Below are positions 1 through 6,133 of a DNA stretch of 6,133 nt, piece after piece. Location: IMG/VR virus record IMGVR_UViG_3300045988_027062, positions 1 to 6,133 of that record; one strand, written 5' to 3'. The first letter of the stretch is position 1, and every line of letters begins with the position of its first letter. The translations under genes and the position numbers were made by a program. This stretch comes from a virus. The notes beneath the pieces are model-generated. The model saw nothing but the letters and a program-made list of their open reading frames with translations, did not search any database and had not been told where the DNA came from.

Positions 1-55
1 TCAATGCGTTATTATGTAACATTGCATTGTATAATCGAATTGGACAGAAGAAAAA
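1..55. repeat. Terminal redundancy copy 1: identical to 6079-6133. Wrap-around of a circular 6078-nt genome.
   Basis: Read directly: bases 1-55 (tcaatgcgttattatgtaacattgcattgtataatcgaattggacagaagaaaaa) recur exactly at 6079-6133. The VP1 reading frame is continuous across this junction. Confidence 0.9.
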
Positions 56-304
56 GTCGTTTTGTTGTTTGAAGCTTCCGAACAACGGACCAATTGTTGG
101 GTGTGTTAATGTATGACACCTTGTTTTGATTGGAAATGTATCTCCTGGTAGTATTAATTGCTTCATTGTTGGTACTAGGACTCCTGGTGCCATACTTGTC
201 CTGCATACAAAACTCAAATCGTGTGTACTACGGTTATAATTGTTTAACCGTGTTGTCATTTTTTTACCACCGCCGAGGGTGTTTTTCCCAATTGCTACTT
301 TCAT
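1..304 (-). CDS. VP1: VP1 N-terminal segment; the same gene as 4361-6133, joined through the circular junction. Candidate starts are ATG 304-302 (ATGA overlap with ORF D's stop) or ATG 259-257.
   Basis: The minus-strand frame with codons at 302-304 ... 20-22 has no stop from 316 down to position 1 and is in frame with the 6100 ORF via 1-55 = 6079-6133. Translation from 304: MKVAIGKNTLGGGKKMTTRLNNYNRSTHDLSFVCRTSMAPGVLVPTMKQLILPGDTFPIKTRCHTLTHPTIGPLFGSFKQQNDFFFCPIRLYNA|MLHNN... This parallels the phiX174 F N-terminus: PHDLSHLGF, IAGDSFE and FTFYVPHRHVY correspond to HDLSF, LPGDTF and FFFCPIRLY. The His falls at residue 13 if the start is M259, as in phiX174 F. Confidence 0.8.
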   Translation of the reverse strand, partial: MKVAIGKNTLGGGKKMTTRLNNYNRSTHDLSFVCRTSMAPGVLVPTMKQLILPGDTFPIKTRCHTLTHPTIGPLFGSFKQQNDFFFCPIRLYNAMLHNNAL

Positions 305-576
305 TTTTCTTCGTTTTTAGAGTTATTTAATTCTTCTTGTAAAATAATATCTCTTAGTTGTGAATACATAGCTCCGATAATGGAGAGTTCTAAATTATTT
401 AGGTTGAAATTTTCTTGAAGAAATTTTTCAGCTTCCTCTCTACTATCAAATACGATGGGTGATACATTATACTTACCGAGTGTAAATATATATTTATCTT
501 CTTCGTTTACTTTAATTGCATTAATTTTTACCACGCTTTGGTCTTTTGCCCAATTTACTGTTTCTTGTTGATCCAT
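301..576 (-). CDS. Accessory ORF D, hypothetical acidic 91-aa protein. Its TGA stop overlaps the candidate VP1 ATG (ATGA at 301-304).
   Basis: ORF on the coding strand with about 17 acidic versus about 10 basic residues. Stop/start overlap with VP1 is read directly. Confidence 0.45.
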   Translation of the reverse strand: MDQQETVNWAKDQSVVKINAIKVNEEDKYIFTLGKYNVSPIVFDSREEAEKFLQENFNLNNLELSIIGAMYSQLRDIILQEELNNSKNEEK

Positions 577-578
577 AA

Positions 579-857
579 TTAAATGTTTTTAGTTGCTTCA
601 ATTTTTGTTAATATAACTCTACTTTTGCGTAATTCATTTTCTAGCCGTTCTGCTTCCTTAAATAGACAGCAGTTCATGACTACCCGGAACCCTTTGACAC
701 AACAGCCTGTATCCCATTCGAACCCTTCCCACATGAGTGCGTAACTACCTTCGCTAAATGATTCAAATGGAATTTTAGCGCTTCTTATCCATTCTTTTTT
801 CCGGAATTTCCCGTATTTCGTTATTGATGGTATCATTGTGATGTGCGGTTGAATCAT
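579..857 (-). CDS. Accessory ORF C, hypothetical 92-aa protein. Its first 83 nt overlap ORF B in another frame, and it contains a CC-x9-CC cysteine cluster. The real start may be an internal Met (e.g. M42 at 734).
   Basis: Six-frame ORF on the coding strand, overlapping ORF B. Cys pairs at residues 52-53 and 63-64. Confidence 0.4.
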   Translation of the reverse strand: MIQPHITMIPSITKYGKFRKKEWIRSAKIPFESFSEGSYALMWEGFEWDTGCCVKGFRVVMNCCLFKEAERLENELRKSRVILTKIEATKNI

Positions 858-1017
858 TTTGACATTTGTTGTTTACATTTACAGTGTTCCCGGAGATCCT
901 CCAGGTACTACCACACCCTTCAAATATATAGGATATTGCTAATAATATAGCTGCACCTATAATACTTGCTACTGTTTTCCAGTTCTCTTTTAAAAATTGT
1001 TTAATTTCATTTTTCAT
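775..1017 (-). CDS. Accessory ORF B, 80-aa small membrane protein. It has a charged N-terminus, one transmembrane helix (TVASIIGAAILLAISYIF) and a polar, basic C-terminal tail. Candidate lysis/membrane effector.
   Basis: Hydrophobic 18-residue segment read directly from the translation. The ORF is tightly packed against ORF A on the coding strand. Confidence 0.5.
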   Translation of the reverse strand: MKNEIKQFLKENWKTVASIIGAAILLAISYIFEGCGSTWRISGNTVNVNNKCQNDSTAHHNDTINNEIREIPEKRMDKKR

Positions 1018-1326
1018 TCAATAAAGTCTTTTAATGTTAGTTGTATAGTTTGAGTTCGCTTCTTTCATTTTCCGTGCTAAAAGTACAGCTTCTTTTTTAG
1101 AAAAGCAAATTATATACTTTGAGTACATTTTTCCTTGTTCGTCAAATTTGCTGTACATTACTTCGTATCTGTGTCCACATTCTTTCCTTTCACCTTCGTG
1201 AATAATTTCCCATTCATCTGAACTTGGATAGTATTTCCACCACTCAAGAGCTTGGAGTTCGTTTTTGAAATACATCGATATGATGATTTTTTTCTCGATG
1301 TGTTTTAATAATAACAGTATTTTCAT
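1018..1326 (-). CDS. Accessory ORF A, hypothetical 102-aa protein.
   Basis: First ORF after the intergenic region, on the same strand as all the other genes. Stop TGA at 1018-1020 directly abuts the ATG of ORF B (TGAATG). No motif recognised; the call rests on coding context only. Confidence 0.45.
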   Translation of the reverse strand: MKILLLLKHIEKKIIISMYFKNELQALEWWKYYPSSDEWEIIHEGERKECGHRYEVMYSKFDEQGKMYSKYIICFSKKEAVLLARKMKEANSNYTTNIKRLY

Positions 1327-1614
1327 AATTTTGTTTTTTGATTACACTCCAAAGATAGTGCAAATATCCCATTTTACGAACAAATATCCCCATTTTAACT
1401 TGGCTTATTAACATTTTTAACTATTGCCCGATTCCTGCAAGGAATACAGCGAAACGAGCTCCGCCGTTGAGCGTATGAATTAAGGAAAGCGGAGCTTTCC
1501 GCCTTATACATTTTAAAATACTGTCTACGTTACTTCCGCAAACGCTCGCCTAATTGCGGAGACTGCGATTAGGCGTTTGTGTTTGTGGAATGATGTCACT
1601 AACCTCTCTCAGTA
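1327..1614. promoter_or_regulatory. Main non-coding region between the VP4 stop and ORF A's start, AT-rich with repeats and hairpins. Candidate promoter, replication origin or packaging region.
   Basis: 288 nt with no substantial ORF. Tandem direct repeats at 1361-1397. Hairpins at 1431-1445 (attcc-tgcaa-ggaat), 1484-1500 (ggaaagc-gga-gctttcc, perfect 7-bp stem) with an alternative 8-bp pairing 1457-1464/1490-1497, and 1547-1575 (cgcctaat ... attaggcg, 8-bp stem with 13-nt loop). Confidence 0.55.
1361..1397. repeat. Tandem direct repeat caaatatccc(c)atttta x2, with starts 20 nt apart; possible iteron or regulator-binding site.
   Basis: 1361-1376 caaatatcccatttta and 1381-1397 caaatatccccatttta, read directly. 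Confidence 0.6.
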
Positions 1615-4013: not shown

Positions 4014-4349
4014 TTATCCCACCGAATCCTGTTGCGAAGGAGTATCTCCAATCTCCTTTGATTCGAGGGCATTTTGTTCCTGTTGTTCTATTTTCCCGTA
4101 GTTTTTTGACTTGGCCAGATTGGCCTGATTAACGGCGTCCATTGCTTGTTGTGCAATTTCCCAACGATCAGTTCGAATATTGTAAGCTGGAAGCACTCCA
4201 TCTTCTCTATTTGTGTAGATAATTGGTGCTCCATCTGTAATTGGTTCATTATTCTCTGTAATTCTTCGAACTTTATCTTCAATAGATTCTCCCACCTGAT
4301 ATTCGTAATTAGTTTTTGGTGGTCTTGGAAAAAATGTTGGTTTTTTCAT
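4014..4349 (-). CDS. Hypothetical 111-aa protein between VP1 and VP2. It has a basic N-terminus and an acidic, Q/E-rich C-terminus. It could be a scaffold/VP3-like or other structural accessory, but this is unproven.
   Basis: ORF with ATG 11 nt downstream of the VP1 stop and stop TAA at 4014-4016. It sits on the same strand inside the structural block. I recognise no motif. Confidence 0.5.
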   Translation of the reverse strand: MKKPTFFPRPPKTNYEYQVGESIEDKVRRITENNEPITDGAPIIYTNREDGVLPAYNIRTDRWEIAQQAMDAVNQANLAKSKNYGKIEQQEQNALESKEIGDTPSQQDSVG

Positions 4350-4360
4350 AATTGTAGTTG

Positions 4361-6133
4361 TTAAATGTTAGGAATTACTTTTGCAGACATAACGCGTCTA
4401 GGTTCCATATTAAATGCGATTTGTACCCAGAAATTTTGAGCTGTTATATCTGTATCCGCGAAGATGTTATTGTATAAATCAGGAAATATATAAGTTGTGT
4501 AAGAATCTATATTACCGAATACTCGGTTTAAACACATCCATCCTTCGTTTTCAATGAGTGCGAAATTGCCGAATGTTTTATTTACATTGGTCATGTATTC
4601 CACCCATGCAGGTTGTTTTCCTATTGATTTTTTCAAATCTGCTATATTGGCATTGGCGTTGATATTTTGGAACAATCTATCTTGAAACCCGATACCGTCT
4701 AATTGAGGTTTGTGCAGGTCATCCATTGTATTAAGATATATATCCCAGTCATTTCCTTGGAAATAATCAACTCTTGGAGTGAGAGAGGTGATACAAAGTA
4801 TATATCCTGGTTCGTCTGCTTTGAAAACAACATTTCCTCCTTTGTGATTGCTAGCTACACCCCTTCCAGCTAGTGTTCCTAATGGTTGATCTTCTGTTCC
4901 ACTATTATTTATTACTTCTTGGAATTCAATTTCAAGTGAGCTACCTCCGAGATATATAGGTGTTTCTACATGATTGAGTCCTCCGCTTGTGTATACTGTT
5001 TGGATCCATGCATTATATGAGCCGTCGCTAACGGCAATACGGTTAAGCATGGTATATACTTTTTTTGCGAGGTTTAATGTGTCAAGAGTAAAGCTGCCGC
5101 TGCTTGTATCAATAGCTGTAATGGCGTTTATACCTGTTTCTCCGTCTATCCATTCGGTATTTACCCAATTAGTATTAATATCGCTTTGATATGTTTTTAA
5201 TACTAAACCTACCATTGGAGAGGCGCAATCATATACTTGATTTCTATCTGGATCAATTGCATTTGGATCTATATGGGTTTTGAATATATTAGTTATAAAG
5301 CTTTCTGAACATTCGTAAGCCGTTCGCCCTGCTGCTAATATATTCTCGCGCATATCATCTATTTCGCTTAATTTTATTTTTTTATACGTAGCTTGTTGGT
5401 CTCTTGCTTCTACTTTGTATTGAACTCCAAACGTGTGTATTCCTTCGCTTGATCTTGTACCATTAATAATATACCCTTTTGTATTAGCTCCCATTGGTGA
5501 GCTTCTTGATATAAATTCTTTATTTAATAAATCGGTAATACTTCCTTGTATATTTCCGAAGGAGTTTTTATCATGTATAAAGTTAGGAATTTGTATATAC
5601 ACATCATCTTCATTTATATTTGTTGGACTGCTTAAACTAAAGCCGACATAATAAACTGCACCAGTTGGAACTTGGATTGTGTCGCTTGGAGGGTTACCGT
5701 TATATTTTTTAATTTCGCTCCATTTTTGTGAAACTTTCGATTGCAAATTAAAGTAAAAAGCTCTTTGATTTGTGCTTTGGGTTGTATATATGTAATCTCC
5801 TCCGTGAACTATTTGATAAAATGAATCTTCCTGTTTATTGGCATAGTAGTTTTTAAAGATATCAAAATACATAATTATAGGAAGAACTTGTACTTGCCCC
5901 CTATCTTGTTCTGCCTCTTCTGAATTGAGCGCTTTATATCCGAGGTAAAAAGGAAGAGCACTTGGGTGTACTTGTTTTCTTAATGTATTCGAGCTTGCCT
6001 CTAGATATTCTTCGGTTATTTTTGAATTTAAAATTCTTACATATGGGAATTTAACTTTTTTCATATCCAGCCCTATATTCAATGCGTTATTATGTAACAT
6101 TGCATTGTATAATCGAATTGGACAGAAGAAAAA
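4361..6133 (-). CDS. VP1: Major capsid protein VP1 (Microviridae F-protein family), C-terminal about 590 codons. The 5' end continues across the circular junction into window positions 56-304; the track's start at 6100 is an internal Met.
   Basis: ORF of 579 aa from the internal Met, with stop TAA at 4361-4363 and no in-frame stop between 6100 and the window end. Size and composition fit a microvirus capsid protein. It is co-linear with VP2 and VP4 on the same strand. The N-terminal continuation (separate feature below) carries F-protein hallmark motifs. Confidence 0.85.
   Translation of the reverse strand, partial: FFFCPIRLYNAMLHNNALNIGLDMKKVKFPYVRILNSKITEEYLEASSNTLRKQVHPSALPFYLGYKALNSEEAEQDRGQVQVLPIIMYFDIFKNYYANKQEDSFYQIVHGGDYIYTTQSTNQRAFYFNLQSKVSQKWSEIKKYNGNPPSDTIQVPTGAVYYVGFSLSSPTNINEDDVYIQIPNFIHDKNSFGNIQGSITDLLNKEFISRSSPMGANTKGYIINGTRSSEGIHTFGVQYKVEARDQQATYKKIKLSEIDDMRENILAAGRTAYECSESFITNIFKTHIDPNAIDPDRNQVYDCASPMVGLVLKTYQSDINTNWVNTEWIDGETGINAITAIDTSSGSFTLDTLNLAKKVYTMLNRIAVSDGSYNAWIQTVYTSGGLNHVETPIYLGGSSLEIEFQEVINNSGTEDQPLGTLAGRGVASNHKGGNVVFKADEPGYILCITSLTPRVDYFQGNDWDIYLNTMDDLHKPQLDGIGFQDRLFQNINANANIADLKKSIGKQPAWVEYMTNVNKTFGNFALIENEGWMCLNRVFGNIDSYTTYIFPDLYNNIFADTDITAQNFWVQIAFNMEPRRVMSAKVIPNI
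6079..6133. repeat. Terminal redundancy copy 2 (circular-genome overlap).
   Basis: Exact 55-nt identity with 1-55. Confidence 0.9.

What the first reader, a model, noticed from the sequence alone, without database searches (positions are those of the whole stretch)
775..1017. 80-aa N-terminally membrane-anchored protein: candidate single-gene lysis protein (amurin-like) or membrane effector
No endolysin, peptidase_M15 or holin-like gene is visible anywhere in the genome, yet the phage must exit its host. ORF B has the architecture of microvirus protein E-type amurins: small size, a single N-terminal TM helix (TVASIIGAAILLAISYIF) preceded by a short charged segment, and a polar C-terminus ending basic (EKRMDKKR). 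Its position among the fast-evolving accessory ORFs rather than in the structural block fits a host-interaction role. It could equally be a superinfection-exclusion or membrane-targeting factor.
Basis: inference. Interest (0 to 1): 0.55.

Follow-up and report, generated by a model that had tools for sequence, protein, structure and literature searches.

The report
Conserved small membrane protein of gut microviruses
The 80-codon gene is real and strongly conserved in a group of gut microviruses, encodes the phage's only membrane-targeted small protein (probably a tiny lipoprotein), and is the best, still untested, candidate for how these phages, which have no cell-wall enzyme, burst their host.

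Summary
The ORF (775-1017, minus strand, 80 aa) is real. It has 631 homologous protein clusters on ~6 kb microvirus contigs and is under strong purifying selection. It is not fast-evolving: 75-88% identity in most close relatives, against 56-75% for the capsid protein VP1. The hydrophobic segment is confirmed. It is followed by an invariant Cys35 with Gly/Ser/Ala at -1 in all 129 distinct family sequences, so it reads as a lipoprotein-type signal peptide, though an atypical one (Glu at -2). The conserved parts are residues 1-14 and 35-53. The polar, basic C-terminal tail is not conserved; it is shaped by the overlapping, more conserved gene p92. A small gene with the same N-terminal build occupies the same slot, upstream of VP1, in 41 of 44 related genomes. 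In one relative that slot holds an M15 peptidase instead. The window has no endolysin, holin or other membrane ORF. There is no detectable similarity to phiX174 E, colicin lysis proteins, entericidin, Rz1 or any Pfam, PHROG or NCBIfam family. Best reading (confidence about 0.4): an envelope-acting lysis protein, not a member of the E family. Superinfection exclusion remains a live rival. Function is inferred, not shown.

The parts
775..1017 (-). p80 coding sequence (80 aa; ATG at 1017-1015, TAA at 777-775)
   Evidence: ORF list; 631 homologous clusters; purifying selection.
976..1017 (-). Codons 1-14: charged, moderately amphipathic N-terminal segment MKNEIKQFLKENWK, the most constrained part of the protein
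   Evidence: pN/pS 0.04 at pS 0.70. AlphaFold2 helix 2-11. Hydrophobic moment 0.51, in the top ~6% of shuffles.
922..975 (-). Codons 15-32: hydrophobic helix TVASIIGAAILLAISYIF, either a signal-peptide h-region or a transmembrane anchor
   Evidence: Kyte-Doolittle peaks 1.95 (19-mer) and 2.33 (15-mer). AlphaFold2 helix 13-32. pN/pS 0.38 for codons 15-34.
913..924 (-). Codons 32-35: lipobox-like F-E-G-C with invariant Cys35
   Evidence: Across 129 distinct family sequences: Cys 129/129; -1 is G 89, S 39, A 1; -2 is E 98, G 18 and others. The strict PS00013-like pattern passes in only 20/129. Divergent members carry canonical boxes such as LSAC, IIGC, NLGC and TGSC.
859..915 (-). Codons 35-53: conserved core after the Cys, CGSTWRISGNTVNVNNKCQ. 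C35, G36, S37, W39, N44 and K51 are invariant
   Evidence: Alignment A1; pN/pS 0.09 at pS 0.61. AlphaFold2 gives no confident fold here (pLDDT below 50).
778..858 (-). Codons 54-80: C-terminal tail overlapping p92. It is not constrained in the p80 frame, and most relatives terminate after codon 72
   Evidence: p80-synonymous sites are frozen (pS 0.05 and 0.00), while the p92 frame has pN/pS 0.03. Family lengths are 72, 77 and 80 aa.
579..857 (-). p92: overlapping downstream gene (92 aa from Met1, or 85 aa from Met8 at 836). Cytoplasmic, with a CC...CC motif; function unknown
   Evidence: 83-96% identity at 100% coverage in most relatives. The L020 homologue starts at the equivalent of Met8. 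No family hit.
1018..1326 (-). p102: upstream gene whose TGA stop abuts the p80 ATG. Variable, and absent in many relatives
301..576 (-). p91: small gene between p92 and VP1. A p91-like gene lies directly upstream of VP1 in nearly all relatives and marks the slot
1327..1614 (-). Intergenic region ahead of the p102-p80-p92-p91-VP1 gene string. It holds a Bacteroides-type TTTG...TAnnTTTG motif (1350-1384) and a hairpin with a 13-bp stem (1547-1575)
   Evidence: The motif count is not above chance (66 of 200 shuffles).

Best explanation
p80 is a genuine, conserved gene of a 6,078-nt circular Alpavirinae-like microvirus, probably infecting Bacteroidales. Its product goes to the cell envelope. A conserved amphipathic N-terminal segment and an 18-residue hydrophobic helix insert in the inner membrane. 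The invariant [G/S/A]-Cys35 that follows is most likely a lipobox. Lipid attachment and signal-peptidase II cleavage would then leave a lipopeptide of about 38-46 residues, whose conserved business end is CGSTW-x-I-x-G-N-x-V-x-V.

I propose that this is the phage's host-exit (lysis) protein. It would act alone on the envelope from the membrane or periplasmic side. It could block a membrane or periplasmic step of wall synthesis. Alternatively it could destabilise the envelope, as the small bacteriolytic lipoproteins (colicin lysis proteins, entericidin B) do. It would not act as an E-type MraY inhibitor.

Shown: the gene is real; it is under selection; its domain layout; its synteny; and the absence of any other lysis gene. 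Inferred: the topology, the lipidation, and above all the lytic function.
For: - Real and constrained: 631 clusters; pN/pS 0.04 and 0.09 in the two conserved blocks.
- Core-gene behaviour: present in 32 of 32 VP1-related genomes from IMG/VR plus Dulem virus 224. A gene of the same build sits in the same slot in 9 of 12 further GenBank relatives.
- More conserved than VP1 and VP2.
- Lipobox-like context: Cys 129/129 and -1 always G, S or A. Divergent members and sister lineages have canonical boxes: LSAC, IIGC, NLGC, TGSC, IIAC, LLSC, TTAC. Some have h-regions too short for a membrane span, for example 13 residues in Dulem virus 224.
- No endolysin, holin or M15 peptidase, and no other hydrophobic ORF with a start codon on the coding strand.
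- Complementary distribution: bajarodmic virus 740 (VP1 40% identical) carries a Peptidase_M15_3 gene exactly in this slot and no such small gene there. Five further M15-bearing genomes, including the cultured lytic Bacteroides phage phiHBP1, have no credible counterpart.
- Literature: outside phiX174-like phages only the M15 peptidase has been proposed for microvirus lysis (PMC3394797, PMC9239249).
Against: - No experiment and no homology to any protein of known function.
- The lipobox is atypical: Glu at -2 in 98/129, and the classical PROSITE-type pattern passes in only 20/129.
- Sister lineages break the rule: -1 is Asn in L043 and Asp in L052; L049 has no Cys; in L041 the ORF ends at the Cys.
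- Charge flanks give no topology call.
- The N-terminal segment is more conserved than expected for a disposable signal peptide.
- The exclusivity with M15 is confounded by phylogeny, and its within-group support rests on one genome.
- Two relatives (L048, L051) have neither gene.
- Gokushoviruses also lack a known lysis gene, so the argument from elimination is weak.
Confidence: 0.4

Rival explanations
1. Superinfection-exclusion or receptor-masking lipoprotein. Like T5 Llp or phi80/N15 Cor, a small envelope lipoprotein would bind the host receptor or entry machinery. This would block further infection and protect released virions from adsorbing to debris.
For: The architecture is the same in outline: a small protein with a signal peptide, a lipobox-like Cys and a short polar exported part. 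Virulent phages also use such proteins (established knowledge of T5 Llp). Nothing in the sequence excludes it.
Against: - It behaves as a core gene, not an accessory one (41 of 44 genomes).
- It is far more conserved than the receptor-binding capsid protein VP1, with which an Llp-type protein should co-vary.
- Its slot is taken by a peptidase in L050.
- The L041 variant (25 aa, ending at the Cys) and the L049 variant (31 aa, no tail) have no exported part to bind a receptor.
- It is absent from the only prophage found, L036.
- No similarity to families annotated for exclusion.
Confidence: 0.2
2. Uncleaved single-pass membrane peptide whose helix is the active part. It could be an E-like amurin that inhibits a membrane step of wall synthesis (MraY, MurJ and the like), or a Hok- or holin-like membrane-damaging peptide. 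The juxtamembrane Cys would serve dimerisation or a disulfide with Cys52, not lipidation. This is still lysis, by a different mechanism.
For: - The part common to all lineages is the amphipathic N-terminus plus the helix. The tail is missing in L041 and L049.
- The N-terminal 14 residues are the most constrained (pN/pS 0.04).
- The lipobox is non-canonical, with exceptions at -1.
- Cys52 is co-conserved in 124/129.
- Four sister lineages give in-register but sub-threshold hits to the 29-residue 'smalltalk' family of Bacteroidetes, which ends just after the Cys.
Against: - The residue at -1 is G, S or A in 129/129 family sequences and in most sister lineages, which an uncleaved anchor does not require.
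- Residues 35-53 are as constrained as the N-terminus.
- Some h-regions are too short to span a membrane (13 residues in L034).
- No similarity to E.
- Cys35 stays invariant in the five sequences that lack Cys52.
Confidence: 0.2
3. Non-lytic envelope or membrane role. Examples: tethering replication or assembly to the inner membrane through the conserved cytoplasmic N-terminal helix, or modifying the cell surface or a host defence.
For: The short N-terminal segment is very strongly conserved. The gene sits in one string with p92, p91 and VP1. Function is unknown for all three small neighbours.
Against: - There is no precedent in microviruses.
- The sharing of the slot with an M15 peptidase points to lysis.
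- The constraint on the exported segment 35-53 is not explained by a cytoplasmic tether.
Confidence: 0.12
4. Chance ORF or annotation artefact.
For: Small size, and no database family.
Against: 631 homologous clusters; strong purifying selection with saturated synonymous sites; conserved position.
Confidence: 0.01

Closest known systems
phiX174 protein E (amurin; Pfam PF04517)
   Same: A small protein of a microvirus with one N-terminal hydrophobic helix. It is the candidate sole lysis factor in a genome without an endolysin.
   Different: - No sequence similarity.
- E is N-out/C-in with a strongly basic cytoplasmic domain: flank charges are 0/+5 in E against +2/+1 here.
- E has an essential proline in the helix; p80 has none.
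- E is overprinted inside gene D, whereas p80 has its own slot.
- p80 has an invariant Cys in a lipobox-like motif and a conserved segment after it.
Colicin lysis proteins / bacteriocin release proteins (Pfam PF02402 Lysis_col)
   Same: A precursor of about 45-80 aa with a signal peptide and lipobox Cys, followed by a short polar mature peptide. They cause (quasi-)lysis on their own. The BRP signal peptide is itself stable and toxic (established knowledge), which would fit the conserved N-terminus here.
   Different: No homology: hhalign aligns only 15 columns around the Cys with probability 6.9%, and there is no Pfam hit. BRPs are plasmid-encoded in Enterobacteria with canonical lipoboxes. 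Their action through OmpLA is unknown for Bacteroidales.
Entericidin B (Pfam PF08085)
   Same: A small bacteriolytic lipoprotein of about 48 aa (established knowledge).
   Different: No sequence similarity (control). It is chromosomal, paired with the antidote EcnA, and its mature part is an amphipathic helix. Here the exported part has no predicted structure.
T5 Llp and phi80/N15 Cor superinfection-exclusion lipoproteins
   Same: Small phage-encoded envelope lipoproteins with a short mature domain.
   Different: Those genes are linked to, and co-vary with, the receptor-binding protein. p80 is far more conserved than VP1. No sequence similarity.
Rz1-type o-spanins (Pfam PF06085)
   Same: A small phage lipoprotein with an intermolecular Cys. 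Two relatives give weak, non-significant PHROG hits to 'Rz-like spanin' through the signal peptide and lipobox.
   Different: There is no i-spanin partner, no endolysin or holin and no proline-rich mature part, and no Pfam hit.
NCBIfam NF033879 'smalltalk protein' (Bacteroidetes small proteins of about 30 aa)
   Same: A short N-terminal segment with Trp, then a hydrophobic helix, then Ser-Cys at the end. Sister lineages (L026-type, L042, L044, L045) hit it in register at 14-20.7 bits.
   Different: All hits fall below the 24.7-bit cutoff. The p80 family itself gives no hit. The function of smalltalk proteins is unknown.

Membership tests
Microvirus lysis protein E (PF04517) | Sequence similarity to E or a match to PF04517 | tested here: not met
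   No Pfam hit at E up to 0.1. BLASTP of p80 against E finds no alignment at E up to 100. E itself scores 79 bits on PF04517 in the same library.
Microvirus lysis protein E (PF04517) | N-out/C-in topology with a basic cytoplasmic C-terminal domain | tested here: not met
   Flank charges are +2/+1 for p80 against 0/+5 for E. The basic tail is missing in 18 of the 19 relatives aligned and is not under selection in the p80 frame.
Microvirus lysis protein E (PF04517) | Conserved proline within the transmembrane helix | tested here: not met
   Residues 1-34 of the window protein contain no Pro. The same holds for the 120 close homologues.
Microvirus lysis protein E (PF04517) | Gene overprinted inside another gene | tested here: not met
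   p80 has its own slot between p102 and p92. Only its last 27 codons overlap p92.
Microvirus lysis protein E (PF04517) | Inhibits MraY and depends on SlyD | not testable with these tools
   Needs genetics or biochemistry.
Bacterial lipoprotein precursor (Sec/SPII, lipobox) | Positively charged n-region followed by an uncharged hydrophobic h-region | tested here: met
   K2, K6, K10 and K14, then 18 uncharged residues 15-32; AlphaFold2 helix 13-32.
Bacterial lipoprotein precursor (Sec/SPII, lipobox) | Lipobox [LVI][ASTVI][GAS]-C with the Cys within about the first 35 residues | tested here: inconclusive
   Cys35 is invariant and -1 is G, S or A in 129/129. But -2 is Glu in 98/129, and the PS00013-like pattern passes in 20/129. 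Divergent members have canonical boxes. Sister lineages include -1 Asn or Asp and one with no Cys.
Bacterial lipoprotein precursor (Sec/SPII, lipobox) | Diacylglyceryl modification and globomycin-sensitive cleavage by LspA | not testable with these tools
   Needs labelling or mass spectrometry. SignalP and LipoP were not available.
Colicin lysis protein / BRP (PF02402) | Match to PF02402 or profile similarity of the mature peptide | tested here: not met
   No Pfam hit. hhalign gives probability 6.9% over 15 columns. Control BRPs score 93-117 bits.
Llp/Cor-type superinfection-exclusion lipoproteins | Co-variation with the receptor-binding protein | tested here: not met
   p80 is 75-88% identical where VP1 is 56-75%.
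Llp/Cor-type superinfection-exclusion lipoproteins | Blocks adsorption or DNA entry of the same phage | not testable with these tools
   Needs a host and phage stock.
Two-component spanin, o-spanin (PF06085) | Partner i-spanin gene plus endolysin and holin in the genome; Rz1-like mature part | tested here: not met
   None of these is present. There is no PF06085 hit, while lambda Rz1 scores 72 bits.
Holin | Small membrane protein paired with a cognate endolysin gene | tested here: not met
   No endolysin or M15 peptidase in the genome. The only PHROG 'holin' hit has E 0.093.
NCBIfam NF033879 smalltalk protein | Score at or above the 24.7-bit cutoff | tested here: not met
   The p80 family gives no hit at E up to 1. 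Sister lineages score 14-20.7 bits.

The most novel reading that the evidence does not exclude
The protein would kill by jamming the host's lipoprotein-maturation pathway. It would be a pseudo-substrate 'signal peptide plus lipobox Cys' that engages Lgt, LspA or Lol but is processed abnormally, in effect a protein version of globomycin. That would make it the first phage single-gene lysis protein aimed at lipoprotein biogenesis rather than peptidoglycan precursor synthesis.

What fits:
- The only near-universal module across lineages is the N-terminus, the helix and the Cys.
- The lipobox is systematically odd: Glu or Gln at -2, occasionally Asn or Asp at -1.
- One relative encodes just 25 residues ending at the Cys (L041).
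- The 'signal peptide' is under stronger selection than signal peptides normally are.
Probability: 0.07. Interest if true: 0.9.

Novelty: new variant of a known kind. Interest (0 to 1): 0.6.

Why it matters
How microviruses outside the phiX174 group leave their hosts is an open question. The literature I could search offers only a horizontally acquired M15 peptidase in a minority of genomes (PMC3394797, PMC9239249). These Alpavirinae-like phages are abundant in the human and animal gut.

A conserved gene of 56-99 codons (25-31 in two relatives) is the only envelope-directed product in genomes that lack the peptidase. That gives a concrete, cheap test: induce it in Bacteroides or Phocaeicola. 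If it lyses cells, it would be a new kind of single-gene lysis protein. It might be the first lipid-modified one, with a target in Bacteroidales that could point to a new antibacterial weak spot. If instead it blocks superinfection, it would be the first such system described in microviruses.

Tried and rejected
- Megablast of the whole window and tblastn of p80 against 50,697 GenBank phage records found nothing. Dulem virus 224 does encode a divergent homologue, which appeared only when its ORFs were read directly.
- The scan of 185,579 species genomes with p80 patterns found no relative. With VP1 it found one Phocaeicola prophage that lacks the gene. The host is therefore inferred, not shown.
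- phiHBP1, the cultured Bacteroides fragilis microvirus, is only distantly related (VP1 22% over a local match) and uses an M15 peptidase.
- The profile search of 1.84 billion representatives found only 8 small-protein clusters and no cellular relatives.
- hhalign between the p80 family and the syntenic L026-type family aligns Trp and Cys in register, but at probability 7.5%. Common ancestry is unproven.
- AlphaFold2 gave no confident structure for residues 34-80, so I ran no fold search.
- The long contigs carrying family members (13.0 and 11.9 kb) are concatemers, not integrations.
- The positive-inside rule gives no topology call.
- The Bacteroides-type promoter motif upstream of p102 is no more frequent than chance. 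Sigma-70-like sites are also at chance level.
- There are no Rfam families in the window.
- The antisense ORF 843-950 (+) and ORF 12-206 (-) are by-products of T-rich or out-of-frame sequence.

Full report
**Setting.** The window is a complete microvirus genome. Its first 55 bases repeat at its end, so the circle is 6,078 nt. All genes lie on the minus strand. Read around the junction, the capsid gene VP1 is 673 codons, starting at window 304. The gene order is:
- an intergenic region (1327-1614)
- p102 (1326-1018)
- p80, the finding (1017-775)
- p92 (857-579)
- p91 (576-301)
- VP1
- p111 (4349-4014)
- VP2 pilot protein (3868-2735)
- VP4 replication initiator (2733-1615)

The nearest GenBank relative is Dulem virus 224, with VP1 54% identical. 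One related prophage (VP1 54%) sits between bacterial genes in an uncultured Phocaeicola genome. Together with the literature on Alpavirinae (PMC3091885, PMC3394797, PMC9239249), this makes a Bacteroidales host likely. That is an inference.

Across 20 genomes, synonymous sites are close to saturated while amino acids are held:

| Codons | pN/pS |
|---|---|
| 1-14 | 0.04 |
| 15-34 | 0.38 |
| 35-53 | 0.09 |

- The gene is not fast-evolving. It is 75-88% identical in most of 24 relatives (46-62% in four divergent ones), where VP1 is 56-75% across the full-length matches. The neighbouring p92 is 83-96%.
- The basic C-terminus is incidental. 18 of the 19 relatives aligned stop after ...REIP (72 aa). 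From codon 54 the gene overlaps p92. There the p80-synonymous sites are frozen, and selection is visible only in the p92 frame (pN/pS 0.03).

Directly after the helix comes an invariant cysteine.
- In 129 distinct family sequences Cys35 is present in every one. The residue before it is always Gly (89), Ser (39) or Ala (1). The next residues are always Gly-Ser-[Thr/Ser/Ala]-Trp.
- Divergent family members found in loci and by an exhaustive profile search keep C-G-S-[T/A]-W. They have textbook lipoboxes: L-S-A-C, I-I-G-C, N-L-G-C, T-G-S-C.
- Dulem virus 224 has I-Q-S-C after a hydrophobic stretch of only 13 residues, too short for a membrane span.

This is the layout of a lipoprotein signal peptide.

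It is not a clean case, however.
- The residue at -2 is Glu in 98/129, which the classical pattern forbids. A PS00013-like pattern passes in only 20/129.
- The flanking charges give no topology call.
- The 14-residue N-terminal segment is under stronger constraint than a disposable signal peptide would need.

I put the lipoprotein reading at roughly 0.55-0.6. The alternative is an uncleaved anchor with a juxtamembrane Cys.

**Synteny.** I scanned the coding strand of every related genome I could fetch for a small ORF with an N-terminal hydrophobic helix.
- All 32 genomes of the VP1-related set have exactly one. It always lies upstream of the p91-like gene and VP1, and none of these genomes has an M15 peptidase.
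- The set includes lineages with VP1 only 37-51% identical, whose small proteins are not alignable to p80 by HMM. Examples are MKITGNQWVEIIRAISTAIIAIITTLCVQSC|TMSLSV... and MKKTYIMIVMCCFMIALIIAC|STTRIQV.... The first of these is itself a family of 756 clusters.
- Profile-profile comparison puts p80 and that family in register (Trp to Trp, Cys to Cys), but at probability 7.5%. Common origin is plausible and unproven.
- Among 12 further GenBank genomes with VP1 39-46% identical, nine have such a gene in the slot. Six of those have S-C after the helix. One has N-C and one D-C. One is a 31-residue peptide without Cys or tail. One of the six S-C genes encodes only 25 residues and ends exactly at the Cys (MKDWVKALLQAIAAAIGALLGGVSC*).
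- Two genomes have nothing in the slot.
- One, bajarodmic virus 740, has a confirmed Peptidase_M15_3 gene in precisely this slot.

The nearly universal module is therefore the N-terminal segment plus helix, usually followed by small-residue-Cys. The exported tail varies in length from 0 to about 65 residues.

**Function.** No family in Pfam, PHROGs or NCBIfam matches p80. Positive controls in the same Pfam library recover Lysis_col, Microvir_lysis, Entericidin, Rz1 and Peptidase_M15_3. The exported part has no confident predicted fold. Function must therefore be argued from context.

For lysis:
- The gene behaves like a core gene.
- It is the only envelope-directed product in a genome with no endolysin, no holin and no other hydrophobic ORF with a start codon on the coding strand.
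- Its slot can be taken by an M15 peptidase. That is the one lysis function previously proposed for these phages.
- The M15-bearing microviruses I examined lack it.

For superinfection exclusion there is only the general resemblance to small phage lipoproteins such as Llp and Cor. Against it:
- The protein does not co-vary with VP1.
- The variants without a tail have nothing to bind a receptor with.
- It is absent from the one prophage found.

I therefore commit to a lysis role at confidence about 0.4 for the lipoprotein form. A further 0.2 or so goes to a helix-driven (E-, Hok- or holin-like) version of lysis. Exclusion gets about 0.2 and other membrane roles about 0.12.

**Comparison with known systems.** In outline it would work like a single-gene lysis protein. 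It is not a member of the E family: every testable defining feature fails. Its build is closest to the small bacteriolytic lipoproteins (colicin lysis proteins, entericidin B), without detectable homology.

A lead I could not close concerns four sister lineages, though not p80 itself. They give in-register, sub-threshold hits to NCBIfam 'smalltalk protein'. This is a 29-position model of Bacteroidetes small proteins that ends just after the Cys. The one paper that mentions a smalltalk gene lists BT_RS08645. That locus tag falls just before BT_RS08660-70 (BT1708-1710), which the same paper lists as sugar-transferase and glycosyltransferase genes.

**Novelty.** I found no description of this family, or of any lipoprotein-type gene, in microviruses in the searchable literature. 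I rate it a new variant of a known kind: a small phage envelope protein and candidate single-gene lysis factor. The function is untested.

Noticed in passing
window 1-55 and 6079-6133: A 55-nt terminal direct repeat shows the window is a circular genome of 6,078 nt cut inside VP1. The full VP1 is 673 aa, starting at 304 (minus strand) and wrapping to 4361. The listed 579-aa VP1 ORF is an N-terminally truncated reading.
   Followed up: yes
window 12-206 (-): The 64-aa ORF lies out of frame inside the VP1 N-terminal coding region. Its tblastn 'conservation' in relatives reflects VP1 DNA conservation, so it is probably not a gene.
   Followed up: partly
window 579-857 (-): p92 overlaps the 3' end of the finding and is the most conserved protein of the clade (83-96%). 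It has paired cysteines (WDTGCCVKGFRVVMNCCLF) and hits no family. Its first 7 codons are less constrained (pN/pS 0.34), and the L020 homologue starts at the equivalent of Met8 (window 836).
   Followed up: partly
window 301-576 (-); e.g. L026:1889-2128, L036:3289-3552: A p91-like gene (motif ...EDKYIxTxG...F.S.EEAE...) lies directly upstream of VP1 in nearly all relatives, including distant ones and the Phocaeicola prophage. Its function is unknown.
   Followed up: no
window 4014-4349 (-): p111 carries a conserved block, EPITDGAPIIYTxRxDGVxPxYNIRTDRW, in the relatives whose ORFs were listed. It is probably the VP3-like scaffolding protein and matches no family in the libraries.
   Followed up: no
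window 1327-1614: The intergenic region after VP4 holds a hairpin with a 13-bp stem (1547-1575), a tandem AAAATGGGATATTTG repeat (~1360-1400, minus strand) and a Bacteroides-type TTTG...TAnnTTTG motif ending 24 nt before the p102 start. It may hold the origin and promoter. The motif count is not above chance.
   Followed up: partly
L036 (CAZAUU010000012.1, uncultured Phocaeicola MAG) 3289-8462: An integrated microvirus (p91-like, VP1, p111-like, VP2, VP4) lies between bacterial genes, including a 915-aa lipoprotein and PEP carboxykinase. It lacks the p102-p80-p92 block.
   Followed up: partly
L050 (PQ006963.1 bajarodmic virus 740) 5374-5754 and 2057-2152: Peptidase_M15_3 sits in the slot where relatives have the small membrane gene. 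There is also a separate 31-aa hydrophobic ORF right after VP1, which may be a holin-like partner.
   Followed up: partly
L041 (MZ089806.1 Microvirus mar60) 5927-6004; L049 (MG945248.1) 452-598: Minimal versions of the syntenic gene. One is 25 aa and ends exactly at the Ser-Cys. The other is 31 aa (from the inner Met) and has a helix but no Cys or tail.
   Followed up: partly
L026:1679-1885, L042:38-439, L044:5387-5701, L045:5344-5541: Recurrent, in-register, sub-threshold hits (14-20.7 bits; cutoff 24.7) to NCBIfam NF033879 'smalltalk protein', a ~30-aa Bacteroidetes family of unknown function.
   Followed up: partly
L053 (13,008 nt) and L057 (11,928 nt): These metagenome contigs carrying family members are head-to-tail concatemers. 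L053 is a dimer of one genome and L057 joins two related genomes. Neither is an integration into a host.
   Followed up: yes
L035 (PV598014.1 Bacteroides phage phiHBP1) 84-488 (-): An ORF annotated as 'hypothetical protein' is a Peptidase_M15_3 (62.6 bits), homologous to endolysins of Bacteroides and Stenotrophomonas phages. It is the likely lysis enzyme of that cultured microvirus.
   Followed up: yes
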